Positions 8,598 through 22,919 of a stretch of DNA of 42,765 nt are shown in pieces. Source of the stretch: a virus; IMG/VR virus record IMGVR_UViG_3300045988_007228, positions 1 through 42,765 of that record. The stretch is one strand, 5' to 3'. Made by a program: the position numbers and the translations under genes. The notes beneath the pieces are model-generated. The model was not told the origin of the DNA, did not search any database, and worked only from the letters and a program-made list of their open reading frames with translations. The number at the start of each line of letters is the position of its first letter. Within the stretch, counting starts at the first letter, position 1.

Positions 8598-9956
8598 ATG
8601 GCAAAGAAAAATTACAACGGTGTCGAGTTCGACGACAGCGTGGATTATGCCGCGCTGATGGGGAAGGCTGCTGCTGCCGGGAACAACGAGAAGGCAGCCG
8701 TCCTGGAACGAAAGCGCAACGCGAAGATCCAGTCCGGCGGCATGGACTACGAGACGACAAACCAGTACGCGCAGTACCTGCCGAAGGTGGACACGCCGTA
8801 TGACACACAGACGGACTACGCCGCCCTGATGGAGAAGGCTGCGGCCTCAGGAGACTACACGAGCGCGGCCCGGTACGAAAAGCAGCGCAACGCGAAAATC
8901 AAGGGCGAGGGTCTGGACTATGAGACGAGCGATTACTACTCGAAGTACCTGCCCGAGAACCGGTATACCTACGACCCGAGCAAGAACGACGCATACCAGC
9001 GCGCGAACGATCAGGCGACTGAGATCTACGACAAGATCATGAACCGCGGCGAGTTCTCATATGACGTGAACAAGGACAAGCTCTACCAGCAGTACCGCGA
9101 TCTGTACGCGCAGATGGGGCGCGGCGCGATGGAGGACACCATGGGGCAGGCGGCGGCGCTGACCGGAGGCTACGGAAGCACCTACAGCCAGAACGCGGGG
9201 CAGCAGGCATACAACGCCTACCTGCAGAAGCTCAACGAGGTCGTGCCTGAGCTGTATACCGCAGCCTACAACCGCTACAACCAGGAAGGCCAGAACCTGA
9301 TGAACCTCTACACCATGGCGCGCAGTAACGCCGACAACGCTTACGAGCGAGACTACAACCAGTGGTACAACCGGCTGCAGCTCGAGCGCAGCGACGAGGA
9401 CACGATCTACAACCGCCAGCAAACCGAGGAGCAGAAGAAGCTCGTGCAGGATGAGACGGACTATGAGCGCAAGCAGAACGCATGGAGCCGTCTGTCGTCG
9501 CTCATCACAACGACCGGGTACCAGCCGTCGAACGATGAGCTGGCGGCGGCAGGTATGTCTGCCAACGAGGCGGCGTATCTGCGGCAGTATTACCAGCAGC
9601 AGAAGGCAGCAGCGTCAAATAAGAGTGGGGGGTCGGGCGGCGGAAGCAGAAGAAGCAGGAGCAGAAGCGGGAGCGGGAGCGGATACGGAGGCGGAGGAAC
9701 GCAGCCGGGGAAGACGGATTCACCGTCTCCGTATGCACACAAGCCCGGCAGCGGGATTACGCACAACGACATCGACATCACGGACGCGAGCGCAGTAGAA
9801 TCCGCTGCGGCCGTGGCGGGCAGAGTGAAAGAGATGATCAAGGAAGGCGTACCGATCGCGGACGTGAATGCATTCATCCGCAGCGCGTCGGAAAACGGCC
9901 TGATCTCGGACGACAGCGCCATCAGGCTGAGATACATGAATAACTCCAGGAAGTGA
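8598..9956 (+). CDS. Virion-associated protein with tandem N-terminal repeats and a Gly/Ser/Arg tract (possible ejection/internal protein)
   Basis: 452 aa. AAAGGAGG RBS. Two repeats of about 49 aa (DYAALM.KAAA.G...RNAKI..G.DYET..Y..YLP). Low-complexity SGGSGGGSRRSRSRSGSGSGYGGGG. Confidence 0.6.
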   Translation: MAKKNYNGVEFDDSVDYAALMGKAAAAGNNEKAAVLERKRNAKIQSGGMDYETTNQYAQYLPKVDTPYDTQTDYAALMEKAAASGDYTSAARYEKQRNAKIKGEGLDYETSDYYSKYLPENRYTYDPSKNDAYQRANDQATEIYDKIMNRGEFSYDVNKDKLYQQYRDLYAQMGRGAMEDTMGQAAALTGGYGSTYSQNAGQQAYNAYLQKLNEVVPELYTAAYNRYNQEGQNLMNLYTMARSNADNAYERDYNQWYNRLQLERSDEDTIYNRQQTEEQKKLVQDETDYERKQNAWSRLSSLITTTGYQPSNDELAAAGMSANEAAYLRQYYQQQKAAASNKSGGSGGGSRRSRSRSGSGSGYGGGGTQPGKTDSPSPYAHKPGSGITHNDIDITDASAVESAAAVAGRVKEMIKEGVPIADVNAFIRSASENGLISDDSAIRLRYMNNSRK

Positions 9957-9967
9957 GGGGCACATAG

Positions 9968-12900
9968 ATGACAGTCAAGAAAGCAGCAATCTCCATTGGC
10001 GATTGGCTCAAGAGCACGGGATTCTCCGCCGAGAAAACGCTTGCTTCGGCGCAGGAGCAGCGGAAAAACCTGCTGCAGCAGATGGACAACGCGAATGCAT
10101 CGTATCTAACCGGCGAGAATCGCGGCGCGCTGCAGAACGCATTCAGCAACTATCAGGCGACCATGAACGTGCTTCGCGGCGCCGGCTATGACACCGGAAA
10201 TGACGTCGACGTTCTGCGCAGAGCCGTGCACTCGTCCTTCGACTTCCAGAACCAGTTCAAGGATGAAAACGACTTCAACGTGTCGTATGCCTACCCGAAG
10301 AAATACAAGGGCAAGACCCGCACGGACGTGAATGCGGCGCTCGCGCAGCTCAAGAACACGCCGGGGGCCGAGGCGGAATATGACTGGCTGAACAAGAACC
10401 AGATGAATTACTGGTCTGCGGACGAGCTGAAGGCGCAGATCGGCGCGTGGCAGAACGAGATTTCCGGCATCGAACGGCAGCGCCGGAATATGCCGCGCAT
10501 GGCAGCTGGGAGCACAGACGCAGACTATGCCAAGCGGCAGCAGGAGGCGCTCGCGCTCTCGGGGCAGATCGATGAGCGAAAAGCGAAGATCGGGAAAGCG
10601 CAGAGCCTGCTCACGCGGAAGACCTACGATGACGAGATCAGCAAGTGGGACACGCAGATGCAGAGGGCGCTCTCCGACTACAGCAAGGCGCTGAGCGTGA
10701 GCGAGAGCGCGAACACGGAGATGGCGATGGCCGGGAACTCCGCATTTGTGGTGCAAAACAGTGACTATGCCACAAACGCGCGCAACACGGTGCGCAGCTT
10801 CGAGCAGCAGCTGCGTGATTACGGCTACAGTGACCAGCAGATTAACGGCATCCGCAACTACGCGCTCACGCAGCAGCACGCAAACGAGGCTTCGGAAATG
10901 GCACAGCAGGCAGCACAGGAGGCCAAGGAGCATCCGTGGCTTTTTTCCGCCATGTCTGTCGGCACGAATATGATGGCCGGAGCGGGTGCGCTCGACATTG
11001 CGGCACAGAATGCGCTGAACGGGACAGACCCGTTCACGGGCGAAAAAATGGCCGTCGACCGTTATACGAAATCCATGGTGCCGAGCACGGTGACGAACAC
11101 CATCCGCGGGAGCGTTTCCGAGGACATGAGCGGCATTGGGTCGTTCCTGTACAACACCGGCATGAGCATGGCAGACAGCCTGGCGACGCTGGCCGTCGGC
11201 GGCGCGACCGGCCTGCACGGCGCGGCGGACGTGATCCTCGGCGGCGCGGCGGCATCTCAGGCAATCACGGATGCGTATGACCGCGGTGCTTCTGACTCAC
11301 AGGCCATGTCGGTCGGCCTGCTCTACGGAACGGCCGAGGCGCTGTTTGAGCACATCAGCCTTGGTAAGCTGCGCACGTTCCATACGTCGGCGGCCGCCGG
11401 GAAGAAGACCGCGAAGACGCTGGTTAAGGATATGCTCAAGCAGAGCTTTGTGGAAGGCAGCGAGGAAGTCTGCACGGACATCGCAAACGTTATCTCCGAC
11501 GCGATCGTGATGGCCGACAAGAGCGAGATCAACCAGACGATCGCCGCCTATCAGGCAGACGGCATGAGCGAGGACGAGGCAACGCGCAGGGCGTGGCTTG
11601 ACTGGCTCGGACATACGGCGCAGGACTTTGCCGGAGGCATGATCTCCGGCGGCGTGATGACCGGCGGCGACATGGCGCTCAACGCCGGGATGCGAAGCGC
11701 GAATTACCGCGAGACCGGCCGACAGATCACGGCCAACGACTACGCGGACATCCTCCGCCACGCTGCAGAGGAAAGCGGCGACGAAAACCTCCGGAAGCTG
11801 GCCGGGAAGAAGCAGACGAACCGCAACACCGGCAAGCTCTACGAGGCGACACAGGAAGCAAATCTCACACAGGCAGTCTCTGACCGTCTGGGTGCGCTCG
11901 GCACGCCAGAAAACGACGTGCAGGAGCTGACCGGCCTCGTGGTCAAGCAAATCAAGGGGCAGGAGCTGACGGGCAAGGAACAGCGAAAATTTGACGCCAG
12001 CAAGCAGGCACAGCGCGCAGCGAGCGAGTATGCGTCCCTGTTCACGCGGGATGCAGACCGGACCACGAACGCATGGGCGCGCAGCCATATGCGTGACGCA
12101 GCCGAGCTGGAGCGCAACGCGATCTATGGCGGGGCGCGCAAGACTGACGCAGGGCAGACGCAGATGCATCATGCGGAGAAGAACGCCGAGGTGCAGGTAA
12201 ACGGTGAGGCCGCGCAGGTGCAGGCGCTTCGATATGACCAGGAGAGCGGCAGCGTGGAGCTGTCCGTGAAGGCCAAAAACGGCGATGTGCAGCGCGTTTC
12301 CGTGAAGGACGCCAAGCTGCCGGAGGGCACGCGCCTGCTCGCCGAGAGCGCGGAAAAATACGGCGAGACCGCGCCGCAGATGTACGCCAACTACCAGAAC
12401 GGGCAGGACGTGGAGCGCTACGCCAGCGCCTACGAGGTGGCATACTCTTACGGCCGTGCGGGCGTGAAAAACTACGCTGTGCTCGAGAACAGCGGCGCAG
12501 CATCGTATCTGACACCGGAGCAGCGGAAATTTGCCTACGAGACCGGCCTTGCCGCGGCACGCAGGGAATCGGACGCAAAGAGCGCGGCGGCCAAGAGCAG
12601 CGAAATTCAGGCCGGCAGCGTGACGCTGGAAGGCGGAAAGCTCGGAAACGTGACGCTCGCCGCCGTGAACACGGCCGGCCTGACGCGCAAGCAGACGGCG
12701 TCGATCGACGTGGCGCGCAAGGTGGCCGAGGCGACCGGCGTGAACGTCGTGTTCTTTGAATCGCAGACCGGAGAGGACGGCAAATACCTCGGCATGAACG
12801 GCGCATACCGCGATGGCACGATCTATCTGGACGTGAACGCAGGGAAGAACAACGTGGACACTGGCGAGACGGCCATCCTGAAGACGATGTCGCACGAGCT

Positions 12901-15900
12901 GACGCACTTTATCCAGCAGAACAGCGGCCAGTATGAGGCGCTGAAGGAATTTGTGACGAACCATGTGCTCGAGAGCGGCGACAGCATCGAGCGCCTTGCC
13001 CGGCAGAAGCTCGACAACGACTCGACCGGCGAGCTGACGATGGACGGCGCGATGGACGAGGTCGTGGCCGATGCGTGCGAGATGATGCTGCGCAACACCG
13101 AGGCCGTGCAGCGGCTGGCGAATGAGAACCGCAGCCTTGCCGAGAAGATCCGCGACTGGATCGGCGACTTCGTCAAGAAACTGCGTGCTGCGTTTAAGGG
13201 CGACCACGCGACGCACGACGAGGCGAGAGCCATGCTCGACCGCATGGTGGAGCTGCAGAAGATCTGGGACGATGCGCTGGTGGACGCGGCGAAGGTGAAT
13301 GCGGGGCGCGCCGGGGAGATTGCAAGCAACGGCGTGCAGGAATCGTCTCGCGGGAAGTACTGGCGGCCTGACCTGAATCAGCAGGAATGGTCGCTTTTGA
13401 ACCGGCGAATGGAAAAAGAACTCGACAGCGGCAAACAATATCTTGACGAATCCACAAAGTGGCTGTACGCTGAAGAAAAGGGTGTGAAGGTGTTCGCCTT
13501 GTACGGGGTGGGAGATGGTACTGAGGCGACCACACTGTATGCGGTCGGCGGAAAACAAGCCGCGCTGCAGAATGCGAATATTGCAGAATATGTTGAGAGG
13601 AGCAGAGAATATGACAGAGATGGACGATCTGTTGATTCGTGGGTTGAGTTGCTTCGGCGTAAGAAAGGGAGCAGGGGCAGAAATCTATCTCAGGGTCAAG
13701 GGCCAACCGGAGCTTCAGGAACGGCTCATGGACTATATGGCGGATCACCGCGAGGCAACGGCGGAAGAACTTCTGGACGTGGCTCGGAGAATCAGCGCAA
13801 AGTAAAAGAGCAGTTCTCCCTCCGCGAACCGGTGGAGCAGGTGCGTGATCTTGTCGCCGTGCATGGCCTGACGGAGCAGAACCTGCGTGGCGCACTCGCG
13901 CTCGGCGGATTGCCGATGCCAAGTATCGCGGTCGTAAAAGCTGCGCAAGGGCACAGCAAGTACGGCCCGATTTCCATGGTGTTCGGCAGGGAGAGTATTG
14001 ACCCGCAGGTTGACCCCAGGAACAAAATCTACGGCGGGGATGCCTACACGCCGACGGCACCGGCAGTGGAATATCCGGTGAACTACGACCGGATGCGCGC
14101 CGTGGAAAACCGAATCTCTGAGCTGAGCAAAAGCGTCGCCGGCGGTGTGTTCTGGAACAGCACCGCGCTTCAGCGCGCCGGTGCCGGCGAAGAGAGCAGT
14201 ATAAGCGCCGAAGAGATGGCACAGAAACTTGCCAGAGACGACAGCGTGCGCGCGGCCTATCTGGCCGATCATGGGGAAACGCTCGAGCCGGTCATGCAGA
14301 CAAAGGAATTCAACCGATACGGCAATGACGCGCTGGCGAAACTGGTGCAGAAAATCGGCGTGCAGGAGCTCGCCCACGTTGAAGCGGACATGGAAACCGG
14401 GGACTATCAGTCTGCGCGAGAGATCGAAGACACGGTGCGCCAGATTATCCGCGACAGCTACGAGGAACAGCACCGCAGATTTCTGGACCGAAAGCCGGAA
14501 CTGAAGGAAAAGCGGCTTGACCACTTCATGGATAACAATGTCCATACTTCCACGGTTGAGGATTTCATCCAAGATGCGTGGGCATTTTACGAAGATCAGG
14601 GCGCTACAGCGGACGAAGTAGACCGATTGGCTACCAGCGACAAATTGCACGAGGCGACGGATACTGAGGACGTGAAGGCGTGGCTGCTGCCACAGCTGAA
14701 ATCTGTTTTTGGCGAGCCCGGCATTTACAACGGGAAGGAGCGCTATACCGCTTCTGGAGACAGACGCAGCTTTTCGCAGCTTCATTGGGAATACACGCTC
14801 GAGAACATTGTGAGTGCGATGGCGGAAACCCAGAAGGAGCGCGGCGGCCAGACGTGGGGGACGTCGGCCGGAGCTATGCAGGCTGTCAGCGCCGAGGACT
14901 TTTCCAGCATTGATGAAGTGAAGGCTGCGAGCGGCAGACTCGGCAAAGTGGAAGGTGAGCAGTATGAAGCGGCGAAGAATGCTGTTGAAAATCTGATCGA
15001 TCAGGCGACACGCGCCGTTATGCGAGAGACGCGGCCGCACGCCGACAATTCGTTCGATGAAAGAGAAATTATCGGCGATGTTATGATGGAAGCGGCGAAG
15101 GGCAAGCGGACGGCGCGGGCCATTCAGCAGGCTTTTGCGAAAGAGGGATATTCGGTCAGTGAAGAAACTGCTCGCCGGATTCAAGAAGTGTATCAGGCGG
15201 CGGCTGCACTTTCGACGGAATATTTTGAGGCGAAGCCGCAGAGAGCGGTCGGCTTTGACGAGGTGAAAGTGGCCATTGTGCCGGACAACATCAACGCAGA
15301 GCTGAAACAGCAGCTTGAGGCCGCCGGTGTGCCCGTGCAGGAATACCGCGCCGGTGACGAGGGGCAGCGTCTTCGGATTCTGAACTCGGATAAATCGTGG
15401 CAGTTTTCCGAGCGCGACTATTCCTACGAGATACTGACAGCAAAGCCGGATATGCGTGTGACGAACGTGGAAGACCGTGTGTCATACCGGCCGGCACGCG
15501 AGGCACGCAAGGAAATCGTCGCGCGCGCGATCGCAAATGCGAAGAAAATCGGCCGGACGAACGAAAACGGCAATGCCGTGGTGCGCGTGGCAGACACGGG
15601 CGACGAGGTGATCTTGAGCGCGAAAGGGCTGCGGCACGGGCTGGACAGGCGGTTCTCTGTGAATGCGCCGGTGACGCTGAAAGCCGGTGAAATCATCCGG
15701 AATGCCATCCGCATCAACGAATTCACGCCGGAAAACGCGCAGGTGGATGCAAGCTATGCGCTGATCGGTGCAGCCAAAAACGCAAAAAACGAACCGTACA
15801 TCGTACAGTTCGTTGTAAACCGCATTTCCAATGAGGTGACAGACGTGGACGTGCTGTATGCAGTGAATGCAAAAAAAGAGCCGGGTGCATTGCTGCCAGA

Positions 15901-18900
15901 CGTCACCGGCACGGATGTGCCAGCTATTCTTACCGACTCTGCTATCAGTATACGCTCGCTCCTGGACTATGTCAATCGGTATTTCCCGGATGTTCTGCCG
16001 GAAAGTGTGCTCCGGCATTATAGCTACGAGCGCAGACCTGCTGGGAAACTCGGAGAGAGTGCGCTTTATCAGCACCGCGACGACACGCGGACAGACCGCG
16101 ACGTGCTCTCCGATGCTGCGGACGGCGACGCGGCCAACGTGCGCGAGATGGAGATGCTGCGCGATTACCGGGAGAAACTGCAGAAATACAGCTCGCTCAC
16201 ACGGAGGCTGGAGCAGCAGCGCGAGCTTGCGCAGAACGCGGAAAGCAAGGAGGAGCGCCTGAAGGCGAGAAACCGCGCGGACAACCTGGCTGCGCAGGTG
16301 AGCCGAGCGGACGCGCAGCTCACGCGGATGCAGAACGCGAAACCGCTGCGCGAGCTGGTGGCGCGCGAGCTGAAGACGCGCGACAGCCTGGCTAAGGAAA
16401 ACGCCATGCTGCGCGACCGCGTGGAGTATTTGCGTGGGCAGATGCAGCGCACGAAAGAGGCAACCACAGACCCGAAAGCCGTGCGGGAAGCCGCAAAGGA
16501 TATCATTGAGCGGACCGGCAGCAGCATCGGCGTGGACGAGGTGATGAGCCAGCTGCAGGAGCTGTACGACGGCATTGCCCGCGCGACCGGAGACAACGGG
16601 CTTACCTACGCGGAGATTCAGCAGCGCGCGGACGATCTCGCACACGACATTTTGAACGACGTGACTGCCGTTGACGACACGATGTACCGCGAGTATGAAG
16701 ACCTGCGGAGGTATTTCAAGGGTCAGCAGCTCGTCGTGTCCGCGGCTGACCGCGGGGAAATTCCGGACTTCGGAGATTTCCGACGGAGAAACATGGGCCG
16801 AATGCGGCTGAAAAACGGCGAGCGGACGAACGTTGACCAGGTTTACGCAGAGCTGAGTGAGCTGTACCCAGAATTCTTTGACCAGAACCGCGAGAGCCAG
16901 CCGAGCGACCAGCTATACCGCATTGCCGATGTGCTGGACGCGGTGTACTCCGTGAACGAGTACAACCCAAACGCGCAGTATATGCGCGAAGCGACGCAGA
17001 GTGTGAGCAACGAGATCCTTGAGCAGTTTTTCGACCTGCCGCAGCAGAGAACGTTTGCCGACCGGCAGGCGAAGAAGGACGAACAGCAGAAGACGCACTA
17101 CCTCAACCAGATCAACGAGCTGCGCAAGGCCAATGACACGCGCATCGCGGAGTTGCGGGCGCAGAACCGCAAACGGCTGCAGGAAGCCATAGCAAGAGAG
17201 CGCGAGAAACGCGACGAGCAGATTGCGCGGCTGAAAGACAGGAACGCGGCAGATAAGGCGCGCCGCGAGGAAAGCGCGGCCGTGGCGAAATACCGCCCAC
17301 GCATCGAGCAGAAGGCGAAGCGCCTGAGCGATTGGCTGCTGAAAAACAGCGATAAGGAGCACATCCCGGAGCCGTTGAAGCTGGCAGTGGGCGAGTTCCT
17401 GGAATCCATTGACTTTACAAGCAAACGTGCGCTGGACGGCGGCGCGCTGACGAAAAAGGACATTCAGCGTTCGCTCCGGTATACTGACCGGATGCAGAAG
17501 CTGCTGGACAGCCTGCGTGGGCAGAACGAGGACGGCACGAGCGACCTCGGGCTGTATCTGGACATTCCGGACGGCTTCCTCGAGGAGATGCAGACGCATA
17601 TCAGCATTGCTGCCGATATCATCAGTCAGAACCCAGGAGAGAGCGTTGTCAGCAAGATGAAACTGGAGCAGCTGCAGCAGCTCGACCGGATGCTCACGAT
17701 CCTGACGCGCAGCATCCAGAACGCGAACAAACTCAAGGCAAATGCGCACTTTGAGACTGCACGGCAGGCGGCGCAGGCGACGGTGCTGGAGCTCGACCGG
17801 CTGGGGCAGGCCAAAGGAAGATCGCAGCGCGGAGAGAAAGTGGCTGGTTTCTTCAGCTGGGAGAACACGACACCGTACTACGCTTTCCAGCGCTTCGGTG
17901 AGGGCGGCAAGGCGATCTTCGAGGCACTGTCGGCCGGCTGGGATCAGATGGCCTTCAACACGAAGTCGGTCATGAGATTCACGGAGCAGACATACAAGCC
18001 GGAAGAAGTAAAGGCGTGGTCGAAGGAAACGCACACGATCGAGCTCGAAAGCGGAAAGACCGTGAAGATGACGACTGCGCAGATGATGGCGTTTTACTGC
18101 CTGTCGAAGCGCGAGCAGGCCGTCGGCCATCTCCTTGGCGGCGGTATGCGCGTGGAGGACATCCAAAACAGTGGGCGCAAGGGGAACATCAAGCAGGCGA
18201 AGCCGTTCCTGCTGACGCAGGAGGACATCATCAAGATCAACGGCGCGCTCACAAAGCGGCAGCGTGAGGTGGCGGACAAGCTGCAGAAGTACATGACGCA
18301 GCAGGGCAGCGAGTGGGGCAACCGCGTGTCGATGGAACGCTTTGGATATCGCGCGTTCACTGAGGAGAACTACTTCCCCATCGAGACGATGGACTCCGAC
18401 CGCGACGAGAGGGGCGTCCCGCAGAAAGAGAACGATATGTTCCGCCTACTCAATATGTCCGCGACGAAGAGCCTCGTCTACAAGGCGAACAACGCGCTCG
18501 TCGTTCACGACATCTTCGATGTGTTTGCAAACCACATGACGGACATGGCAAAGTATGACGCGCTGGCGCTGCCGATCCTCGACGCGATGAAGTGGTACAA
18601 CTACCGCGAGAAGCAGAAGCTTGAAAACGGTCACGTGCTCACGACGACGGTGCAGCGGTCGCTCGAACAGGCATACGGCACGGACGCCAACAAGTATTTC
18701 ACGACGTTCATCAAGGACCTGAACGGCGTGAACGAAGGCGGCCGCGGGGAGGGCTTTGCGAAGAAGATGCTCTCCAACTACAAGGTGGCGGCCGTGGCTG
18801 CGAACCTGCGTGTGGCGCTGCTGCAGCCGACAGCGTATGTGCGCGCGGTCGGCGTGATGGACCCGAAGTATCTCGTAAAGGCGTTCGCGGAGGGAAAAAG

Positions 18901-20755
18901 CGCATACAAAGAGGCAGAGGCGAACAGCGGCATCGCTCTGTGGAAGCAGATGGGCTTTTACGACACGAACATCGGCCGGGGTGTCCGCGACCAGATCAAG
19001 AACGCCGGGACGTGGAAGGACTCGACGGTCGAATTCCTTATGATGGGCGCAGAATGGGCAGACCGGCTGACGTGGGGACGCTTGTGGAACGCCTGCAAAG
19101 CGGAGGTGCGTGACAAGCAGAAGCTGACCGGCGACGCGCTGCTAAAGGCGACGGCCGAACGCTTCCGGGAGGTCATCTACTCGACGCAGGTGGTGGACAG
19201 CACGATGACACGCAGCCAGGCGATGCGCGCGACCGGCGTGTACGGTGCTGTATCTACGGCCTTTATGTCGGAACCGACGCTGTCGTACAATCTGCTGCTC
19301 AAGGCGTATACGGACTACACGGCGGAGCTGCGCGCGACCGGCGACAAAAAAGAAGCGTGGAGAAACGCAAGCGGGAAAATCGCAAGAGCGCTGGCGACCT
19401 ATCTTGTGTCGGCGACTGCTTCGGGGCTTGCCGAATCAATCGTGGACGCCTGCAGAGACGACGACGAGTACGCCACGTGGTTGGAGAAGTACCTGAGCGC
19501 GCTGATCGGCGCGAAATACAAAGACGGAAAGTTTTCCGGCGTGAACCCGCTTGAAAGCAACCTGTTCATGGACGTGGATATCCTCTCGAAGCTCCCGATC
19601 CTCAAGGATTTCATGTCGATGATCTCCGGGTACGAAAACGACCGGATGGACACGGAATGGATCAGCAACCTGATCGACGCATATCGGATCTGGGACGAGA
19701 CGATCAAGCTGGAGACAGGTGAGCTGGACGAGCCGACGGACGTGACGTACAACGGCAACATGACGCTGTACGGAAAGATCTACAAGACACTCAAGGCCGT
19801 TTCGCAGGCGACCGGCCTGCCGATCAGCGCGGCGAGCCGCGAGGTTGTAACGCTCTGGAACACCATCGCCGGAGCTGTCGGCAAGGGCGACGAGTGGACG
19901 ATCCATACCTATGACTCCGGGCCGGAGAGCCAGATCAAGTACGGCCTGATGGACGGTTACCTCACGCGCGAAGAGGCGCAGCAGCTGCTGGTCGAAAAAG
20001 GGCTCGCGGACAACGAGGATGATGCGTACTGGAAGGTTGACAAGTGGGCGACCGGCGAAGGAAAGTACGACGAGGCGCTCGCTGCGGTGCTCAGCGGCGA
20101 CAAGACCGCCTTCGATGCGCAGGCCAAGGAGTTGAAAGAGCACGGCATCGGCGAGAAGCAGCTGCAGTCTGCGGTGCGCTCGCAGGCAAAGGAGTGGTAC
20201 GTCGGCGACGACGACGGAAAGCGCTCGATCACGAAGGAACAGGCGCTGAAGATCCTGCAGCAGTACGGAGGAAAAGACGCCGACGAGGCGCAGAAACTGG
20301 TGCAGAAGTGGACGTGCGAGGTCGTGACCGGCACGGACTACGACGACATCAAGGATCTGTATCTCGACGGGAAGCTCACGCGGTCTCGCGCGGTAGACAT
20401 GCTGACGCGCTACGGCGGGATGAAGCAGGAGGATGCGCAGAACAAGATCGACACGGCGGACTTTGTGAAGGCACATCCGGAATGCGACGGCATCAGCGTT
20501 GAGGCCGTGCAGAAGTACAACGAGCAGGCGAAAGCGGCCGGCCTGGACGCGGGGACGTTCTGGCAAGCATATCAGTTTAAAAACGACGCAAGGACTACGC
20601 GCGACAGCAACGGCAAGGCCATCAGCGGTCAGGGAGCAATGGACAAGGTCGCTGCGTACATCGACGGGCTGGACATCAGTTCGGCGCAGAAAAACGCTCT
20701 GTTTTTGTGCTTCTACAGCCAAAAATCGCTCGGGAAGATCCGCTGGAGCAATTAA
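9968..20755 (+). CDS. Giant 3,595-aa multidomain protein; polyvalent-protein-like, probable virion-packaged/ejected protein
   Basis: Single uninterrupted ORF of 10.8 kb. Gly-rich hydrophobic segments around aa 325-480. HExxH (SHELTHF, nt 12893-12907) in a zincin-like context. Several blocks resemble LPD-type modules of polyvalent proteins (by memory). Long coiled coils. C-terminal helical repeats. Confidence 0.8.
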   Translation: MTVKKAAISIGDWLKSTGFSAEKTLASAQEQRKNLLQQMDNANASYLTGENRGALQNAFSNYQATMNVLRGAGYDTGNDVDVLRRAVHSSFDFQNQFKDENDFNVSYAYPKKYKGKTRTDVNAALAQLKNTPGAEAEYDWLNKNQMNYWSADELKAQIGAWQNEISGIERQRRNMPRMAAGSTDADYAKRQQEALALSGQIDERKAKIGKAQSLLTRKTYDDEISKWDTQMQRALSDYSKALSVSESANTEMAMAGNSAFVVQNSDYATNARNTVRSFEQQLRDYGYSDQQINGIRNYALTQQHANEASEMAQQAAQEAKEHPWLFSAMSVGTNMMAGAGALDIAAQNALNGTDPFTGEKMAVDRYTKSMVPSTVTNTIRGSVSEDMSGIGSFLYNTGMSMADSLATLAVGGATGLHGAADVILGGAAASQAITDAYDRGASDSQAMSVGLLYGTAEALFEHISLGKLRTFHTSAAAGKKTAKTLVKDMLKQSFVEGSEEVCTDIANVISDAIVMADKSEINQTIAAYQADGMSEDEATRRAWLDWLGHTAQDFAGGMISGGVMTGGDMALNAGMRSANYRETGRQITANDYADILRHAAEESGDENLRKLAGKKQTNRNTGKLYEATQEANLTQAVSDRLGALGTPENDVQELTGLVVKQIKGQELTGKEQRKFDASKQAQRAASEYASLFTRDADRTTNAWARSHMRDAAELERNAIYGGARKTDAGQTQMHHAEKNAEVQVNGEAAQVQALRYDQESGSVELSVKAKNGDVQRVSVKDAKLPEGTRLLAESAEKYGETAPQMYANYQNGQDVERYASAYEVAYSYGRAGVKNYAVLENSGAASYLTPEQRKFAYETGLAAARRESDAKSAAAKSSEIQAGSVTLEGGKLGNVTLAAVNTAGLTRKQTASIDVARKVAEATGVNVVFFESQTGEDGKYLGMNGAYRDGTIYLDVNAGKNNVDTGETAILKTMSHELTHFIQQNSGQYEALKEFVTNHVLESGDSIERLARQKLDNDSTGELTMDGAMDEVVADACEMMLRNTEAVQRLANENRSLAEKIRDWIGDFVKKLRAAFKGDHATHDEARAMLDRMVELQKIWDDALVDAAKVNAGRAGEIASNGVQESSRGKYWRPDLNQQEWSLLNRRMEKELDSGKQYLDESTKWLYAEEKGVKVFALYGVGDGTEATTLYAVGGKQAALQNANIAEYVERSREYDRDGRSVDSWVELLRRKKGSRGRNLSQGQGPTGASGTAHGLYGGSPRGNGGRTSGRGSENQRKVKEQFSLREPVEQVRDLVAVHGLTEQNLRGALALGGLPMPSIAVVKAAQGHSKYGPISMVFGRESIDPQVDPRNKIYGGDAYTPTAPAVEYPVNYDRMRAVENRISELSKSVAGGVFWNSTALQRAGAGEESSISAEEMAQKLARDDSVRAAYLADHGETLEPVMQTKEFNRYGNDALAKLVQKIGVQELAHVEADMETGDYQSAREIEDTVRQIIRDSYEEQHRRFLDRKPELKEKRLDHFMDNNVHTSTVEDFIQDAWAFYEDQGATADEVDRLATSDKLHEATDTEDVKAWLLPQLKSVFGEPGIYNGKERYTASGDRRSFSQLHWEYTLENIVSAMAETQKERGGQTWGTSAGAMQAVSAEDFSSIDEVKAASGRLGKVEGEQYEAAKNAVENLIDQATRAVMRETRPHADNSFDEREIIGDVMMEAAKGKRTARAIQQAFAKEGYSVSEETARRIQEVYQAAAALSTEYFEAKPQRAVGFDEVKVAIVPDNINAELKQQLEAAGVPVQEYRAGDEGQRLRILNSDKSWQFSERDYSYEILTAKPDMRVTNVEDRVSYRPAREARKEIVARAIANAKKIGRTNENGNAVVRVADTGDEVILSAKGLRHGLDRRFSVNAPVTLKAGEIIRNAIRINEFTPENAQVDASYALIGAAKNAKNEPYIVQFVVNRISNEVTDVDVLYAVNAKKEPGALLPDVTGTDVPAILTDSAISIRSLLDYVNRYFPDVLPESVLRHYSYERRPAGKLGESALYQHRDDTRTDRDVLSDAADGDAANVREMEMLRDYREKLQKYSSLTRRLEQQRELAQNAESKEERLKARNRADNLAAQVSRADAQLTRMQNAKPLRELVARELKTRDSLAKENAMLRDRVEYLRGQMQRTKEATTDPKAVREAAKDIIERTGSSIGVDEVMSQLQELYDGIARATGDNGLTYAEIQQRADDLAHDILNDVTAVDDTMYREYEDLRRYFKGQQLVVSAADRGEIPDFGDFRRRNMGRMRLKNGERTNVDQVYAELSELYPEFFDQNRESQPSDQLYRIADVLDAVYSVNEYNPNAQYMREATQSVSNEILEQFFDLPQQRTFADRQAKKDEQQKTHYLNQINELRKANDTRIAELRAQNRKRLQEAIAREREKRDEQIARLKDRNAADKARREESAAVAKYRPRIEQKAKRLSDWLLKNSDKEHIPEPLKLAVGEFLESIDFTSKRALDGGALTKKDIQRSLRYTDRMQKLLDSLRGQNEDGTSDLGLYLDIPDGFLEEMQTHISIAADIISQNPGESVVSKMKLEQLQQLDRMLTILTRSIQNANKLKANAHFETARQAAQATVLELDRLGQAKGRSQRGEKVAGFFSWENTTPYYAFQRFGEGGKAIFEALSAGWDQMAFNTKSVMRFTEQTYKPEEVKAWSKETHTIELESGKTVKMTTAQMMAFYCLSKREQAVGHLLGGGMRVEDIQNSGRKGNIKQAKPFLLTQEDIIKINGALTKRQREVADKLQKYMTQQGSEWGNRVSMERFGYRAFTEENYFPIETMDSDRDERGVPQKENDMFRLLNMSATKSLVYKANNALVVHDIFDVFANHMTDMAKYDALALPILDAMKWYNYREKQKLENGHVLTTTVQRSLEQAYGTDANKYFTTFIKDLNGVNEGGRGEGFAKKMLSNYKVAAVAANLRVALLQPTAYVRAVGVMDPKYLVKAFAEGKSAYKEAEANSGIALWKQMGFYDTNIGRGVRDQIKNAGTWKDSTVEFLMMGAEWADRLTWGRLWNACKAEVRDKQKLTGDALLKATAERFREVIYSTQVVDSTMTRSQAMRATGVYGAVSTAFMSEPTLSYNLLLKAYTDYTAELRATGDKKEAWRNASGKIARALATYLVSATASGLAESIVDACRDDDEYATWLEKYLSALIGAKYKDGKFSGVNPLESNLFMDVDILSKLPILKDFMSMISGYENDRMDTEWISNLIDAYRIWDETIKLETGELDEPTDVTYNGNMTLYGKIYKTLKAVSQATGLPISAASREVVTLWNTIAGAVGKGDEWTIHTYDSGPESQIKYGLMDGYLTREEAQQLLVEKGLADNEDDAYWKVDKWATGEGKYDEALAAVLSGDKTAFDAQAKELKEHGIGEKQLQSAVRSQAKEWYVGDDDGKRSITKEQALKILQQYGGKDADEAQKLVQKWTCEVVTGTDYDDIKDLYLDGKLTRSRAVDMLTRYGGMKQEDAQNKIDTADFVKAHPECDGISVEAVQKYNEQAKAAGLDAGTFWQAYQFKNDARTTRDSNGKAISGQGAMDKVAAYIDGLDISSAQKNALFLCFYSQKSLGKIRWSN
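13611..13805 (+). CDS. Nested out-of-frame 64-codon ORF inside the giant gene (candidate overlapping gene)
   Basis: GAGGAG 8 nt upstream of ATG 13611. Translation MTEMDDLLIRGLSCFGVRKGAGAEIYLRVKGQPELQERLMDYMADHREATAEELLDVARRISAK is globular-looking. The codon-position GC pattern favours this frame over the giant frame here. Confidence 0.5.
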   Translation: MTEMDDLLIRGLSCFGVRKGAGAEIYLRVKGQPELQERLMDYMADHREATAEELLDVARRISAK

Positions 20756-20792: not shown

Positions 20793-20823
20793 TATTGTAG
20801 AATCAATGGAAGGAGGCCACCAC

Positions 20824-22779
20824 ATGACTATCACAATCGCAGACGGCCGCGGGGCGCTGTGGCAGTGGGACACCGGGCGGCGCTTGCGCGTGGGCAGCGG
20901 CGTGGAGCAGGTCCACTATCAAAATAGGTGCTTTGGCCGCAGCGTGGACGTGAACGTCGGCACAGACGGCACGGCCATCATCCCGGACGAGTTGCTGCAG
21001 GACTGCCACACGCTGACGGCCTACGCCTACGTCACCGACGACACCGGCGCGTACACGATGGTGCAGCAGGACTTTGCAGTGCACAAGCGCGCGAAGCCCG
21101 CCGGGTATACATACACCCCGACAGACCAGATGACGTTGCGGACGATCCAGCACCAGATCGGCGACCTTGCTGACCTGACAACGGAGGCAAAGGAAAATCT
21201 TGTTGCGGCCATCAATGAGGTGGCACGGATGGGCGGACGCATGAGCTTGCGCGTAGCGGACGACTACATCCAGTACAGCACAGATAGCGGAAGCGCGTGG
21301 CAAAATCTCATCGCCGTGGCCGAGCTCAAGGGTGCGGACGGTTCGCAAGGCCCAAGAGGCGAGCCCGGCGCGAAGGGTGACCCCGGCGAGAAAGGCGACC
21401 CCGGCGCAAAGGGCGATACGGGCGCAACAGGCCCGGCGGGTCCGCAAGGCCCAGTTGGCGCTCCGGGCAAGAATGGCGCGGATGGCAAACCGGGAGCGGC
21501 TGGTGCTGACGGTGCAGCAGGTGCTGACGGAAAAAGTGCCTATGAATATGCGGCTGAAGGCGGATACGGCGGAACTGAAGAAGAATTTGCTTCTGAACTT
21601 GGCAGACTTTTCGGCGGAAGCACTGCAACGGTTCTTTCGGATAACCTTTTTGATAAAAGTATCGCAACTACAGGCAAGATTTTTTATCATTCCTCTTCTG
21701 GACCGTCTTTGGTTGACGTTAGTAATGGCTTTTATGCTTATGTTCCCCTTCGTGGAGCGGGTACTTATACAGCAATGATTTGTTGGGTTAATCATGGCGA
21801 ATCGTATGCAAAGAGAGTACCGATTTTGAAAGCAGATAAAACTTTCCTGCAAAATGTCACAGGTACTCTTACTAAAATAGATTCAAATTTCGGGTATATC
21901 GAATTTACAATTACAGAAACAATGATATCCAACGGAGCGGCTCTTTATGCTTTTGACGGTTCAACCAATGTTTCACCCACACTTGATGAAGTAATGATTG
22001 TAAAGGACAGAGAATATCCGAGCAAATATATCCCTTACGGCTATATAGAAGTGGAGGTCGAAGGCGCTGACCCAGTGAACATACTTAGCGGAAAGACCGC
22101 CGTATTTCTTGGCGACAGCATTTGTGCAGGAACGACAACTCTTGAGAGTGCGGCGGAATATGGCTATGGCTGGGGCGGACTTATCGGTGAAGCAAACAAA
22201 ATGAAATGGAAAAACTTTGGCAGAAACGGCGGAACTATTGCACCGATTTCTTCTGTTGAAGAAGCAAGGCGGGTTCCGGTACAGGTCGATTTGGCGCTTG
22301 CACAATACCCTGACGCCGATTATGTAATTTTTGAGGGAGGGTGCAACGATGCGGACACCCTTGGAGAAAGCAATCTCGGAACATTTTCTGCGAGCGGATA
22401 TGCTCCCGAAGACACTTCGACTTTCACGGGAGCTTTTGAGGTTCTTGTTCTTAAAATACTCAATTCCTTCCCTAACGCCAAAATCGGATATATCGTTGCA
22501 CAGAAAATGGGGGTTTCGGATGATTACGGTTCTGCAAACAACCGTTATCGAAAATTTTTCGACAGAGCTGTTGAAATCTGCCAAAAGTGGGGAATCCCCG
22601 TTATAGACCTTTGGAACGAAACTCCGCTAAACCCAAAACTTGCGATTCATTACGACAGCTCTCTTACCGCAGACCAAGCAAACGAAAACGAAAAATGCTA
22701 TACGGACGGACAGCACCTTACTCTTACAGGTTACAAAAAACTGCAAAACCCTGTTGAAGAATTTATGAGGAAACTGTAA
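20824..22779 (+). CDS. Tail fibre/spike with collagen-like stalk and C-terminal SGNH/GDSL hydrolase domain
   Basis: Start ATG 20824 has GGAAGGAGG 7 nt upstream (the track start 20806 is less likely). About 23 G-X-Y triplets. SGNH blocks FLGDSICAG, GGCNDA and DGQHLT in the C-terminal part. Confidence 0.75.
   Translation: MTITIADGRGALWQWDTGRRLRVGSGVEQVHYQNRCFGRSVDVNVGTDGTAIIPDELLQDCHTLTAYAYVTDDTGAYTMVQQDFAVHKRAKPAGYTYTPTDQMTLRTIQHQIGDLADLTTEAKENLVAAINEVARMGGRMSLRVADDYIQYSTDSGSAWQNLIAVAELKGADGSQGPRGEPGAKGDPGEKGDPGAKGDTGATGPAGPQGPVGAPGKNGADGKPGAAGADGAAGADGKSAYEYAAEGGYGGTEEEFASELGRLFGGSTATVLSDNLFDKSIATTGKIFYHSSSGPSLVDVSNGFYAYVPLRGAGTYTAMICWVNHGESYAKRVPILKADKTFLQNVTGTLTKIDSNFGYIEFTITETMISNGAALYAFDGSTNVSPTLDEVMIVKDREYPSKYIPYGYIEVEVEGADPVNILSGKTAVFLGDSICAGTTTLESAAEYGYGWGGLIGEANKMKWKNFGRNGGTIAPISSVEEARRVPVQVDLALAQYPDADYVIFEGGCNDADTLGESNLGTFSASGYAPEDTSTFTGAFEVLVLKILNSFPNAKIGYIVAQKMGVSDDYGSANNRYRKFFDRAVEICQKWGIPVIDLWNETPLNPKLAIHYDSSLTADQANENEKCYTDGQHLTLTGYKKLQNPVEEFMRKL
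21331..21536 (+). repeat. Collagen-like G-X-Y triplet repeat region within the fibre gene
   Basis: GADGSQGPRGEPGAKGDPGEKGDPGAKGDTGATGPAGPQGPVGAPGKNGADGKPGAAGADGAAGADGKS. Confidence 0.85.
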
Positions 22780-22871: not shown

Positions 22872-22919
22872 CAAAAGCCATGCCTTTCGGTGGGGCGGTA
22901 TGTGGAGAAAGGAGCATAA

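What the first reader, a model, noticed from the sequence alone, without database searches (positions are those of the whole stretch)
9968..20755. One 3,595-aa ORF occupies a quarter of the genome: a polyvalent-protein-like virion/ejection protein
A single 10.8-kb ORF sits in the tail/ejection position of a 42.7-kb phage. By eye it contains:
- Coiled-coil regions.
- Gly-rich hydrophobic, membrane-like segments (about nt 10940-11410).
- A zincin-type HExxH (SHELTHF, nt 12893-12907) in a context resembling the MPTase domain of polyvalent proteins.
- Blocks resembling LPD-type modules (LVAVHGLTEQNLRGALALGGLPMPSIAVVKA..., ...YFEAKPQRAVGFDEVKVAIVPD...).
- A block around nt 15560-15850 (VILSAKGLRHGLDRR...YIVQFVV...) that recalls Barnase/EndoU/RelE-like (PBECR) modules.
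- A large uncharacterised C-terminal region.

Polyvalent proteins (Iyer, Aravind and colleagues) are proposed to be injected with the DNA to counter host defences. The combination seen here, in a small podovirus-like genome, would be worth dissecting domain by domain.
Basis: partly seen in the sequence, partly recalled or inferred. Interest (0 to 1): 0.7.

Follow-up and report, generated by a model that had tools for sequence, protein, structure and literature searches.

The report
Giant modular polyvalent phage protein
A quarter of this 42.7-kb gut Clostridia phage genome is one real 3,595-aa gene for a "polyvalent" protein, a known class, built as a conserved scaffold with a metalloprotease motif that carries swappable effector modules (a predicted RNase and an LPD3-like domain) and is probably packed in the virion and ejected into the host.

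Summary
The ORF (9968-20755, +, 3,595 aa) is real, and the polyvalent-protein reading holds. Two module labels were swapped.

- **PBECR5:** the block called "LPD-type" is a strong Pfam PBECR5 RNase domain (aa 1281-1509, E=3e-66).
- **LPD3:** the block called "PBECR-like" is a divergent LPD3 (below Pfam's cut-off in this protein; a homologue passes it).
- **HExxH:** H976/E977/H980 are invariant in 145 homologues, and E1031 is 99% conserved. This is a gluzincin signature, but Pfam's MPTase-PolyVal model is not matched and Foldseek found no fold match.
- **"Membrane-like" segments:** they are too weakly hydrophobic for transmembrane helices.

New findings:
- About 1,900 cluster representatives, many of 2,500-4,300 aa, share the HExxH region. 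The giants have a common chassis: Gly-rich domain, HExxH, variable cassettes, a ~900-aa C-terminal module with no Pfam or PDB match, then helical repeats.
- Cassettes are delimited by a [KQR][YF]SxR[DE] motif. It is 13-fold enriched, and 57 of 58 copies lie in the variable region.
- A 452-aa partner gene nearly always precedes the giant gene. The pair sits either before the tail fibre or in the portal-to-scaffold slot.

Packaging and ejection are inferred from synteny and from phi24B gp47 proteomics. This is a new member of a known kind, of moderate interest.

The parts
9968..20755 (+). Giant polyvalent-protein gene, 3,595 aa plus stop codon
   Evidence: ORF list and translation. Hundreds of homologues exist for every region.
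9968..10837 (+). M1, N-terminal region (aa 1-290), helical or coiled-coil-like
   Evidence: Conserved only in close relatives: 1 of 96 giant relatives. No family match.
10835..11827 (+).
   Evidence: Present in 59 of 96 giant relatives. Invariant or near-invariant residues are E457, E461, E496, E499, E500 and several Gly. Hydropathy maximum is 1.24, so this is not a classical transmembrane region. No Pfam match in this protein or in divergent homologues.
12425..13312 (+). M4, zincin-like HExxH domain (aa 820-1115)
   Evidence: Present in 94 of 96 giant relatives. H976, E977 and H980 are 100% conserved and E1031 is 99% conserved in 145 sequences, and these four are invariant in the trimmed alignment A3. 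AlphaFold secondary-structure order is helix, three strands, HExxH helix, then a later helix carrying E1031. Only sub-threshold hits to zincin families.
12893..12907 (+). HELTH motif (H976, E977, H980)
   Evidence: Located; invariance shown.
13058..13060 (+). E1031, candidate third zinc ligand in the conserved AxxExxAD helix
   Evidence: 99% conserved; invariant in A3.
13313..13807 (+). M5, small alpha+beta domain (aa ~1116-1224) followed by a Gly/Ser/Arg-rich disordered linker (aa ~1225-1280)
   Evidence: A variable slot. The close relative P0001 has a Pfam MuF_C domain here instead. This version does not match MuF_C. AlphaFold confidence is low and the linker has pLDDT below 50.
13811..13828 (+). 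Junction motif 1 (QFSLRE, aa 1282-1287)
   Evidence: Motif scan. High-identity homology breakpoints occur at aa 1270-1280.
13808..14494 (+). M6, PBECR5 predicted RNase domain (aa 1281-1509)
   Evidence: Pfam PF18814, E=3.4e-66, 224 bits against a 25-bit cut-off. Conserved H1299, H1329, D1345, N1352, D1358 and T1361 are retained.
14495..15397 (+). M6b, conserved extension that always accompanies PBECR5 (aa 1510-1810); contains the FEAKPxR motif
   Evidence: Co-occurs with PBECR5 in 9 of 9 giant relatives that have it. E1754, K1756, R1759, E1765, Y1793, R1801 and N1806 are 100% conserved. No Pfam match.
15401..16081 (+). M7, divergent LPD3 module (aa 1812-2038). It starts with junction motif 2 (QFSERD, nt 15401-15418) and ends with junction motif 3 (YQHRD, nt 16067-16081).
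   Evidence: LPD3 is the top Pfam hit: E=0.006 for this protein's segment and 31.4 bits for a homologue's segment. The module is tandemly duplicated in some homologues. H1890 and N1917 are invariant. Breakpoints cluster at aa 1800-1819 and 2030-2039.
16085..17167 (+). M8, charged helical, coiled-coil-like spacer (aa 2040-2400)
   Evidence: Weak coiled-coil family hits, composition and heptad periodicity.
17168..19867 (+). M9, conserved ~900-aa alpha-helical C-terminal module (aa 2401-3300), function unknown
   Evidence: More than 120 homologues, fused to many different effector domains. Present in 66 of 96 giant relatives. 19 invariant columns. AlphaFold pLDDT 79.5 and pTM 0.67. No PDB match by sequence or fold. 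82 BFVD matches, all fragments of giant phage polyvalent proteins.
19868..20752 (+). M10, C-terminal helical-hairpin array (aa 3301-3595)
   Evidence: Tandemly amplified in many giant relatives. Helical array in the AlphaFold model. Self-BLAST found no internal repeat in this protein.
8598..9956 (+). Conserved 452-aa partner gene immediately upstream (Q/N/Y-rich, with a Gly/Ser/Arg linker)
   Evidence: A homologue directly precedes the giant gene in 36 related loci, in both synteny arrangements. Some homologues carry PG_binding_1 (E=3e-17) or a DUF3597 segment. No Pfam, PHROG or PDB match for this copy.

Best explanation
The gene encodes a phage-type polyvalent protein built as a delivery chassis.

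**Architecture.** Conserved N-terminal parts (a Gly-rich domain and a zincin-like HExxH domain) and a conserved C-terminal ~900-aa helical module plus helical repeats flank a variable region. That region holds interchangeable effector cassettes. Here they are a small unassigned domain, a PBECR5 RNase with its extension, and an LPD3-like domain.

**Proposed mechanism (inferred).**
1. The protein is made late, together with its 452-aa partner, and is packaged inside the capsid near the portal.
2. It is expelled through the short tail ahead of, or with, the DNA.
3. The chassis mediates packaging, exit and possibly envelope crossing.
4. The zincin domain cuts the polyprotein at or near the exposed [KQR][YF]SxR[DE] junctions.
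5. The freed PBECR5 RNase and LPD3 module act on host or defence RNAs and proteins in the first minutes of infection.

**Shown here:** gene reality, module identities, chassis conservation, cassette mosaicism at the junction motifs, and synteny.

**Inferred:** packaging, ejection, autoprocessing and RNase activity.
For: **Module identity**
- PBECR5 at 224 bits, with conserved His, Asp, Asn and Thr residues retained.
- The HExxH...E signature is invariant over 145 homologues of 35-50% identity, with zincin-like secondary-structure order.
- LPD3 is the top hit for M7.

**Polyvalent family**
- Homologues of each region carry ART-PolyVal, PBECR3, MuF_C, LPD23, SprT-like, SNF2 helicase, DHH and M23 modules.
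- BFVD fold matches of the C-module are all giant polyvalent phage proteins.

**Chassis**
- The order M2, M4, variable region, M9, M10 recurs in 96 giant representatives.
- These were drawn from 1,943 hits at E<=1e-3.

**Cassette exchange**
- Relatives 89-96% identical in the N-terminal region carry different middle modules.
- Breakpoints cluster at aa ~1280, ~1810 and ~2034, exactly where the only three relaxed-motif copies lie.
- The motif is 13-fold enriched. 57 of 58 copies lie in the variable region, which is 28% of protein length (p=5e-31).

**Virion context**
- The gene lies among portal, capsid, 'internal virion protein' and tail-fibre genes on one strand.
- In six related loci the partner-plus-giant pair sits between the portal and scaffold genes. 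That is the slot of MuF/SPP1 gp7-type minor head proteins (established knowledge; the MuF role is described in PMC5512222).
- Some partner homologues carry a peptidoglycan-binding domain.

**Precedent**
- phi24B gp47, a 2,811-aa polyvalent protein of a podovirus, is abundant in virions by proteomics and was proposed as an ejection protein (bioRxiv 10.64898/2026.04.10.717836).
- N4 vRNAP carries an MPTase domain and is packaged (PMC5512222).
Against: - There is no direct evidence of packaging, ejection or cleavage for this protein or any member of its chassis lineage.
- No MuF N-terminal, portal-binding or other known encapsidation domain was detected.
- The HExxH domain matches no curated peptidase model at threshold and no PDB fold, so peptidase activity rests on motif conservation.
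- phi24B gp47 is not detectably homologous to the chassis, so it is only an analogy.
- The junction motif could be a structural cap shared by cassette N-termini, or a linker. F1283 and Y1818/Y1820 are conserved within their own modules. It need not be a cleavage site.
- LPD3 assignment is below Pfam's cut-off in this protein.
- The sequences used for the motif statistics are related, so the p-value overstates independence.
Confidence: 0.6

Rival explanations
1. It is primarily a structural ejectosome or cell-wall-penetration protein, a fused equivalent of the T7 gp14-16 or P22 gp7/16/20 internal core. Its job would be to build the conduit across the Gram-positive envelope. The HExxH domain would attack peptidoglycan or wall proteins, and the 'effector' cassettes would be accessory.
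For: - It sits just upstream of the tail fibre, where T7-like phages encode internal core proteins (T7 gene order is established knowledge).
- The conserved parts (M2, M4, M9, M10) far outweigh the cassettes and are present even when the cassettes differ.
- Partner homologues carry PG_binding_1.
- The phi24B authors propose a conduit role and wall degradation by the metallopeptidase of gp47.
Against: - No fold similarity to any solved ejection protein (T7, N4, DEV and others are in the PDB library).
- M2 lacks transmembrane-grade hydrophobic helices.
- No lysozyme, transglycosylase or amidase domain in this protein.
- Rapid cassette turnover among near-identical phages points to arms-race effectors rather than pure structure.
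- This reading overlaps with the best explanation rather than excluding it.
Confidence: 0.2
2. It is not packaged. It would be a late-expressed cytoplasmic or released polymorphic-toxin-like protein, used for superinfection exclusion, inter-phage or inter-bacterial competition after lysis, or defence of the lysogen.
For: - Many homologues lie in probable prophages on large contigs.
- Cassette swapping at a conserved junction motif resembles polymorphic toxins (established knowledge).
- MuF-anchored toxin systems are discussed in PMC5512222.
Against: - No signal peptide or secretion-system genes were seen in the window.
- No small immunity-like ORF follows the gene; the next gene is the tail fibre.
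- The gene is embedded in the virion module in all loci examined.
- The conserved 2,000+ aa chassis is unexplained by a simple toxin role.
Confidence: 0.1
3. It is a giant enzyme of the N4 type (a virion RNA polymerase), or a tape-measure or tail-length protein mis-read as polyvalent.
For: - Its size (3,595 aa) is close to N4 vRNAP (~3,500 aa), and N4-type vRNAPs are fused to MPTase domains (PMC5512222).
- Gly-rich, moderately hydrophobic stretches also occur in tape-measure proteins (own knowledge).
Against: - No match to any RNA polymerase in Pfam, NCBIfam, PHROGs or PDB sequences.
- No PDB fold match for aa 800-1290 or aa 2401-3595.
- No tail tube, sheath or tape-measure chaperone genes in the window; the portal is P22-like.
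- aa 1-800 and 1290-2400 were not folded, so a cryptic polymerase there is not formally excluded. However, aa 1281-2038 is accounted for by PBECR5 and LPD3.
Confidence: 0.03

Closest known systems
Phage-type polyvalent proteins (Iyer, Burroughs, Anand, de Souza, Aravind 2017, PMC5512222)
   Same: - Several unrelated conflict domains in one giant polypeptide encoded among virion genes.
- A zincin-like HExxH hub domain.
- PBECR RNase and LPD modules.
- Extensive mosaicism between relatives.
   Different: - No MuF N-terminal, portal, DarA-N or vRNAP anchor was detected.
- The HExxH domain is not recognised by Pfam MPTase-PolyVal.
- About 60% of the length (M1-M3, M6b, M8-M10) matches no Pfam LPD or other model.
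- I found no mention of the conserved N- and C-terminal chassis or the junction motif in the passages I read.
Stx phage phi24B gp47 (vb_24B_48, ~2,810 aa)
   Same: - A giant polyvalent protein of a temperate podovirus.
- It carries LPD domains plus a metallopeptidase.
- It was detected in virions by proteomics and proposed to be an encapsidated ejection protein.
   Different: - No significant profile similarity to the C-module (probability 0.9%) or the HExxH domain (probability 4%).
- Different LPD set (LPD1, LPD5, LPD38).
- Gram-negative host.
- The gene lies at the far end of the genome rather than inside the head/tail block.
Coliphage N4 gp50 virion RNA polymerase and relatives
   Same: - A ~3,500-aa protein of a podovirus that is packaged and ejected.
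- It contains an MPTase domain and is sometimes fused to ART, PBECR or lysozyme domains.
   Different: No RNA polymerase module was detected here. The genome is 42.7 kb rather than ~70 kb.
Large ORFs of Clostridium clostridioforme LM41 prophages phi1 and phi4 (PMC11318856)
   Same: - 8-kb ORFs making up ~20% of a gut Clostridia prophage genome.
[quoted passage not shown].
- Probably the same broad family.
   Different: Those were noted only in passing and not dissected. I did not test direct homology to this protein.
MuF / SPP1 gp7 minor head proteins fused to effector or toxin domains
   Same: - The portal-adjacent gene slot used by the partner-plus-giant pair in six related loci.
- The concept of a head-internal carrier with a variable effector.
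- MuF_C occupies the M5 slot in the close relative P0001.
   Different: No Phage_Mu_F domain was found in the giant protein or its partner. The variable part is internal rather than C-terminal.
Polymorphic and multi-effector toxins with conserved pre-toxin junctions or autoprocessing (CdiA VENN, Rhs, MARTX); resemblance from own knowledge, not tested
   Same: - A conserved delivery scaffold with swappable payloads delimited by a short conserved motif.
- A built-in protease is proposed to release the payloads.
   Different: - Phage-virion context.
- The payloads are internal.
- Cleavage at the motif is unproven.

Membership tests
Polyvalent proteins (Iyer et al. 2017) | Two or more (2-15) distinct conflict-related domains in one polypeptide | tested here: met
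   HExxH zincin-like domain, PBECR5 and LPD3-like domain, plus further conserved modules.
Polyvalent proteins (Iyer et al. 2017) | Encoded in a phage or prophage next to virion or packaging (late) genes | tested here: met
   Portal, major head, internal-virion-protein and tail-fibre genes flank it. The synteny is conserved in related loci.
Polyvalent proteins (Iyer et al. 2017) | Delivered into the host together with the DNA | not testable with these tools
   Only an analogy is available: phi24B gp47 proteomics and N4 vRNAP.
PBECR5 (Pfam PF18814) | Score above the curated gathering threshold over most of the model | tested here: met
   224 bits against a 25-bit cut-off; model positions 2-223 of 239; aa 1281-1509.
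PBECR5 (Pfam PF18814) | BECR-type active site (conserved His, plus Thr/Ser) retained | tested here: inconclusive
   H1299, H1329 and T1361 are 95-100% conserved and present in this protein. Which of them is catalytic was not mapped onto a BECR structure.
LPD3 (Pfam PF18798) | Score above the gathering threshold (27 bits) | tested here: not met
   This protein's segment scores 17.1 bits (E=0.006). LPD3 is the top hit for 5 of the 10 segments scanned, and one homologue segment scores 31.4 bits. The module is therefore LPD3-related but divergent.
MPTase-PolyVal (Pfam PF18818) | Significant match to the family model | tested here: not met
   No hit for this protein even at E<=10. Only 2 of the 43 HExxH-domain segments scanned hit it, with a best E of 0.088.
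Zincin-like (gluzincin) metallopeptidases | HExxH on a helix plus a downstream Glu ligand on a later helix, conserved across the family | tested here: met
   H976, E977, H980 and E1031 are invariant. AlphaFold places them on helices that follow a three-stranded sheet.
Zincin-like (gluzincin) metallopeptidases | Zincin fold confirmed by structure comparison | tested here: inconclusive
   Foldseek of the whole 491-residue model found nothing at E<0.5. The PDB profile search gave only Wss1p at E=0.3. Sub-threshold Pfam hits are enriched for zincin families. A trimmed-core search could not be run.
MuF_C (Pfam PF18819) | Match to the family model | tested here: not met
   No hit in this protein or in four M5 homologue segments. 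The close relative P0001 has MuF_C in this slot.
N4-like virion RNA polymerase | Single-subunit RNA polymerase module | tested here: not met
   No sequence match in Pfam, NCBIfam, PHROGs or PDB. No fold match for the two modelled regions.
Integral membrane or pore-forming ejection protein | Hydrophobic transmembrane helices | tested here: not met
   The maximum 19-residue Kyte-Doolittle mean in M2 is 1.24, and no stretch of 18 or more residues lacks D, E, K, R, H, Q and N.

The most novel reading that the evidence does not exclude
The conserved chassis (Gly-rich domain, HExxH domain, ~900-aa C-module, helical repeats and the obligate 452-aa partner) would be a previously undescribed, very widespread effector-delivery platform of phages of gut Clostridia, with remote structural relatives in environmental phages. 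Effector cassettes would be swapped at a dedicated [KQR][YF]SxR[DE] junction, which would also be the cis-cleavage site of the built-in zincin. That would make it a virion-borne analogue of MARTX or polymorphic toxins.
Probability: 0.3. Interest if true: 0.65.

Novelty: new member of a known kind. Interest (0 to 1): 0.42.

Why it matters
- **Scale.** Phages of abundant gut Clostridia (Oscillospiraceae, Faecousia, Lachnospiraceae) spend about a quarter of a small genome on one protein. The family is very large in metagenomes yet has no experimental study.
- **Cassette turnover.** Near-identical phages differ in which effector cassettes they carry. The variable region is therefore a natural catalogue of candidate anti-defence or host-takeover activities (RNases, ADP-ribosyltransferases, helicases, unknown LPDs).
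- **Practical handles.** The conserved junction motif and scaffold give ways to mine and excise cassettes and to test how a ~400-kDa protein is packaged and ejected by a short-tailed phage.
- **Unknown fold.** The ~900-aa C-module has no Pfam, PDB-sequence or PDB-fold match, despite 19 invariant alignment columns.

Tried and rejected
- The whole-protein homologue search timed out, so I searched thirds of the protein instead.
- No match for the whole protein in NCBIfam or PDB sequences.
- No near-identical DNA in GenBank phages. Only four weak protein-level matches for the middle region and one for the C-module, so no cultured relative was available.
- Foldseek against the PDB gave only noise for both AlphaFold models. 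PDB profile searches gave only helical or designed-protein noise.
- phi24B gp47 was tested as a possible homologue of the chassis and rejected.
- MuF_C identity of M5 was rejected.
- The transmembrane interpretation of the Gly-rich region was rejected on hydropathy and on the conserved acidic residues.
- The N4-type RNA polymerase and tape-measure readings were rejected (see rival explanations).
- Self-BLAST found no internal repeat in the C-terminal tail of this protein, although the unit is tandemly amplified in relatives.
- The partner gene g8598 was tested as a possible MuF-like protein. No support from Pfam, PHROGs or PDB.
- The 451-aa minus-strand ORF at 41323-42678 overlaps the TerL frame and is treated as a shadow ORF of GC-rich DNA.
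Full report
**1. The observation**

The window contains one uninterrupted ORF at 9968-20755 on the + strand, 3,595 aa. Chance cannot produce this even in 60% GC DNA, and every part of it has homologues.

The window is a complete circular phage genome. Its first ~55 nt recur at its end, and a terminase-large-subunit-like ORF with a Walker A motif crosses the junction. The gene is therefore 25% of a genome of about 42.7 kb.

All large genes around it are on the same strand:
- P22-type portal (410-2347)
- a scaffold-position gene (2945-3991)
- HK97-type major head protein (4049-5155)
- a protein matching PHROG 'internal virion protein' (5909-7894)
- a 452-aa unknown (8598-9956)
- the giant gene
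- a collagen-repeat/GDSL-esterase tail fibre (20806-22779)

No tail tube, sheath or tape-measure genes were found. The 'podovirus-like, ejection-protein position' description is therefore fair.

**2.

(a) *HExxH.* There is exactly one, at H976/E977/H980, nt 12893-12907.
- In an alignment of 145 homologous segments, mostly 35-50% identical, the three residues are 100% conserved, T979 is 98% conserved, and a downstream Glu (E1031, in an AxxExxAD helix) is 99% conserved.
- In a trimmed 43-sequence alignment the only invariant columns are one Gly, H976, E977, H980 and E1031.
- AlphaFold models aa 800-1110 confidently. The order is helix, three strands, HExxH helix, then a later helix carrying E1031. 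This matches the zincin core described in PMC5512222.
- Curated models do not recognise it. The best hit for this protein is eCIS_core/DUF4157 at E=0.006-0.04.
- Across the 43 aligned HExxH-domain segments the sub-threshold hits are enriched for zincin families: eCIS_core 7, DUF6782 4, DUF5700 2, MPTase-PolyVal 2, YgjP-like 1, M9 1.
- The PDB profile search touches Wss1p at E=0.3. Foldseek with the whole 491-residue model finds nothing.
- Conclusion: it is a zincin-like metallopeptidase by signature, probably a separate clade. It is not a demonstrated member of Pfam MPTase-PolyVal.

(b) *The 'LPD-type' block* beginning LVAVHGLTEQNL is in fact PBECR5 (PF18814): aa 1281-1509, 224 bits, E=3.4e-66.
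- Conserved polar residues of the family (H1299, H1329, D1345, N1352, D1358, T1361) are all present. The predicted metal-independent RNase therefore looks intact.
- The second 'LPD' block (YFEAKPQRAVGFDEVKVAIVPD) lies in a 300-aa extension (aa 1510-1810). This extension accompanies PBECR5 in every giant relative that has it and has its own invariant residues, but no Pfam match.

(c) *The 'PBECR-like' block* (VILSAKGLRHGLDRR...YIVQFVV) belongs to a 230-aa module, aa 1812-2038.
- Its best Pfam hit is LPD3: E=0.006 and 17 bits for this protein's segment, and 31.4 bits for one homologue's segment. LPD3 is the top hit for 5 of the 10 segments scanned.
- The module is tandemly duplicated in some homologues, and a weak paralogous copy overlaps an above-threshold LPD3 hit.
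- H1890 and N1917 are invariant.
- The two labels were therefore swapped.

(d) *'Membrane-like' segments (aa ~325-480).* The 19-residue hydropathy maximum is 1.0-1.24, below transmembrane-helix values. The invariant residues of this conserved domain (aa 290-620) are five glutamates and several glycines. It is a conserved soluble-looking domain rich in small residues, not a set of transmembrane helices.

(e) *Coiled coil.* This is plausible for aa ~2040-2400.

**3. What the comparison with relatives adds**

*Family size and architecture.* An exhaustive HMMER search with aa 800-1290 found 1,943 cluster representatives at E<=1e-3. Of the best 150, 96 are 2,500-4,300 aa long. Mapping this protein's modules onto those 96 shows a recurrent order:

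| Module | Giants with it (of 96) |
|---|---|
| Gly-rich domain (M2) | 59 |
| HExxH domain (M4) | 94 |
| C-module (M9) | 66 |
| C-terminal helical units (M10), often tandemly amplified | 60 |
| PBECR5 | 9 |
| LPD3 | 8 |
| M5 | 4 |

A variable stretch lies between M4 and M9. PBECR5, LPD3 and M5 are occasional occupants of it. Other occupants seen in homologues are ART-PolyVal, PBECR3, MuF_C, LPD23, SprT-like, SNF2 helicase, DHH, M23 and ADP-ribosyl exotoxin domains.

*The C-module (aa 2401-3300).*
- It has 19 invariant columns over sequences 28-50% identical.
- AlphaFold gives a confident, mostly helical model (pLDDT 79.5, pTM 0.67).
- It has no PDB match by sequence or by fold.
- It has 82 significant matches in the viral predicted-structure library. 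All are pieces of giant proteins of uncultured phages, labelled MuF-C, 'Nuclease', PolyVal ART, LPD or N-acetyltransferase. Freshwater and marine phages match at 12-14% identity with TM-scores of 0.4-0.6.

*Cassette exchange.*
- Relatives 89-96% identical in the N-terminal 1,100 aa differ downstream. P0001 has MuF_C where this protein has M5, P0003 lacks M5, and P0004 carries ART-PolyVal instead of PBECR5.
- Internal breakpoints of high-identity alignments cluster at aa 1270-1280, 1800-1819 and 2030-2039.
- At exactly these places, and nowhere else in the protein, lies a short motif: QFSLRE (1282), QFSERD (1812) and YQHRD (2034).
- The stricter pattern [KQRE][YF]SxR[DETA] occurs 143 times in family members of 1,500 aa or more, against 11 in shuffles with a maximum of 20.
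- In 64 giants that have both M4 and M9, 57 of 58 copies fall between them, a region that is 28% of the length (binomial p=5e-31; the sequences are related, so this is indicative only).
- The residues upstream of the motif are polar or Gly-rich. In this protein, motif 1 follows a 55-aa Gly/Ser/Arg linker that AlphaFold leaves disordered.

*Neighbourhood.*
- A scan of one genome per species found 77 loci. Nearly all are in MAGs of gut or rumen Clostridia (Oscillospiraceae, Faecousia, Lachnospiraceae, Acutalibacteraceae, Limivicinus), and one is in the isolate Waltera intestinalis. About 16 contigs are 38-47 kb, which is phage-genome size.
- A homologue of the 452-aa gene at 8598-9956 directly precedes the giant gene in 36 loci.
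- The pair occupies one of two slots. One is MCP, small ORF, phrog_511 protein, partner, giant, as in this window. The other is portal, partner, giant, scaffold, MCP (L009, L014, L016, L021, L026, L037).
- The second slot is where SPP1-type phages encode the MuF/gp7 minor head protein (established knowledge; the MuF role is summarised in PMC5512222).
- The partner has no family match here. Two divergent homologues start with PG_binding_1 (E=3e-17) or a DUF3597 segment.

**4. Mechanism**

*Shown:* a real gene; a polyvalent composition; an invariant gluzincin signature; an apparently intact PBECR5; a conserved two-ended chassis; cassette exchange at a conserved junction motif; obligatory linkage to a partner gene inside the virion module.

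*Inferred (overall confidence about 0.6):*
- The protein is packaged in the head and ejected. The basis is synteny, the MuF-like slot, the phi24B gp47 virion proteomics and the N4 vRNAP precedent.
- From my own knowledge, P22-size heads carry well over 1 MDa of ejection proteins, so a few copies of a ~400-kDa protein are physically plausible.
- The zincin processes the polyprotein, as Iyer et al. propose for MPTase hubs, and may do so at the junction motifs. I put that specific step at about 0.3-0.4.
- The released RNase and LPD3 module then act on host or defence targets.

*Rivals:* a mainly structural conduit or wall-penetration role (0.2, not exclusive of the above), a non-packaged toxin or exclusion protein (0.1), and a virion RNA polymerase or tape measure (0.03).

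**5. Comparison with what is known, and novelty**

The class was defined in 2017 (PMC5512222). PBECR5 and LPD3 are Pfam families derived from that work.

UniProt already auto-labels relatives as 'Nuclease', 'PolyVal ART' or 'MuF C-terminal domain-containing' proteins. A 2024 paper noted 8-kb LPD3-like ORFs making up ~20% of two C. clostridioforme prophages. A 2026 preprint shows a non-homologous giant polyvalent protein inside phi24B virions.

The finding is therefore a new member of a known kind.

I found no mention of the following in the papers and passages I read:
- the conserved chassis
- the unnamed C-module
- the junction motif that coincides with the recombination breakpoints
- the partner gene and its two alternative slots

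I could not check these against the supplementary LPD1-40 alignments of Iyer et al.

Interest is moderate (0.42). A specialist would not be surprised by a polyvalent protein here. The scale of the family, the lack of any experimental member, and the tractable junction and cassette organisation make it a reasonable target.

Noticed in passing
window 1-55 and 42710-42765: The first ~55 nt of the window are repeated at its end, which looks like an assembler overlap. The sequence is therefore a complete circular or permuted genome of about 42.7 kb. A TerL-like ORF with Walker A motif GGARGGGKSW starts near 41.6 kb and continues across the junction to just before the portal gene.
   Followed up: partly
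window 8598-9956: The 452-aa partner protein has a duplicated N-terminal unit (DYAALMxKAAAxG...RNAKI..G.DYET..Y..YLP, two copies), a Q/N/Y-rich helical middle and a Gly/Ser/Arg linker. Homologues in L054 and L025 start with PG_binding_1 or a DUF3597 segment. Its function is unknown, but it is always linked to the giant gene.
   Followed up: partly
window 20806-22779: The tail fibre combines collagen triple-helix repeats (aa ~182-235) with a C-terminal GDSL/SGNH esterase domain. This suggests a deacetylase or esterase activity on a cell-surface polysaccharide receptor.
   Followed up: no
window 22000-28000: GC content drops to 0.515-0.55, against about 0.60 elsewhere. The region holds an 801-aa ORF (24881-27286) with only a weak Ig-like hit, and a tRNA-Pro(GGG) on the minus strand at 24645-24720. 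It may be a recently acquired or host-range region.
   Followed up: no
window 28398-32747: A C5-cytosine DNA methyltransferase (28398-29987) is followed by a RecE-like exonuclease (30127-31203) and a RecT-like annealing protein (31863-32747). Together these suggest an anti-restriction plus recombination module.
   Followed up: no
window 41323-42678 (minus strand): A 451-aa minus-strand ORF overlaps the TerL reading frame and has no family match. It is probably a shadow ORF of GC-rich DNA. Many other long overlapping ORFs in the ORF list are of the same kind.
   Followed up: no
L001 (CAKTNQ010000005.1, 71-kb contig of an Oscillospiraceae MAG): This is a near-identical phage (87-96% protein identity across the neighbouring genes). 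The spacing between its HExxH domain and C-module is ~770 nt shorter, so it has a different cassette complement. The contig is longer than the phage, so it may be an integrated copy that gives the host.
   Followed up: partly
proteins P0152-P0160, on contigs up to 986 kb: Proteins of 650-750 aa on chromosomal-size contigs share a 250-aa segment 95-96% identical to aa 1812-2060 of the giant protein. They also carry a second, divergent LPD3 copy and a weak methyltransferase hit. This suggests very recent exchange of the LPD3 cassette between this phage lineage and other elements.
   Followed up: partly
giant protein aa 3300-3595 (window 19868-20752): By eye the C-terminal tail contains ~30-aa helical-hairpin units (LTREEAQQLLVEKGLADNEDDAYWKVDKW / ITKEQALKILQQYGGKDADEAQKLVQKW / LTRSRAVDMLTRYGGMKQEDAQNKID). 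From memory they are reminiscent of Ltp-type lipoprotein repeats. Pfam did not match them, and I did not test the resemblance.
   Followed up: no
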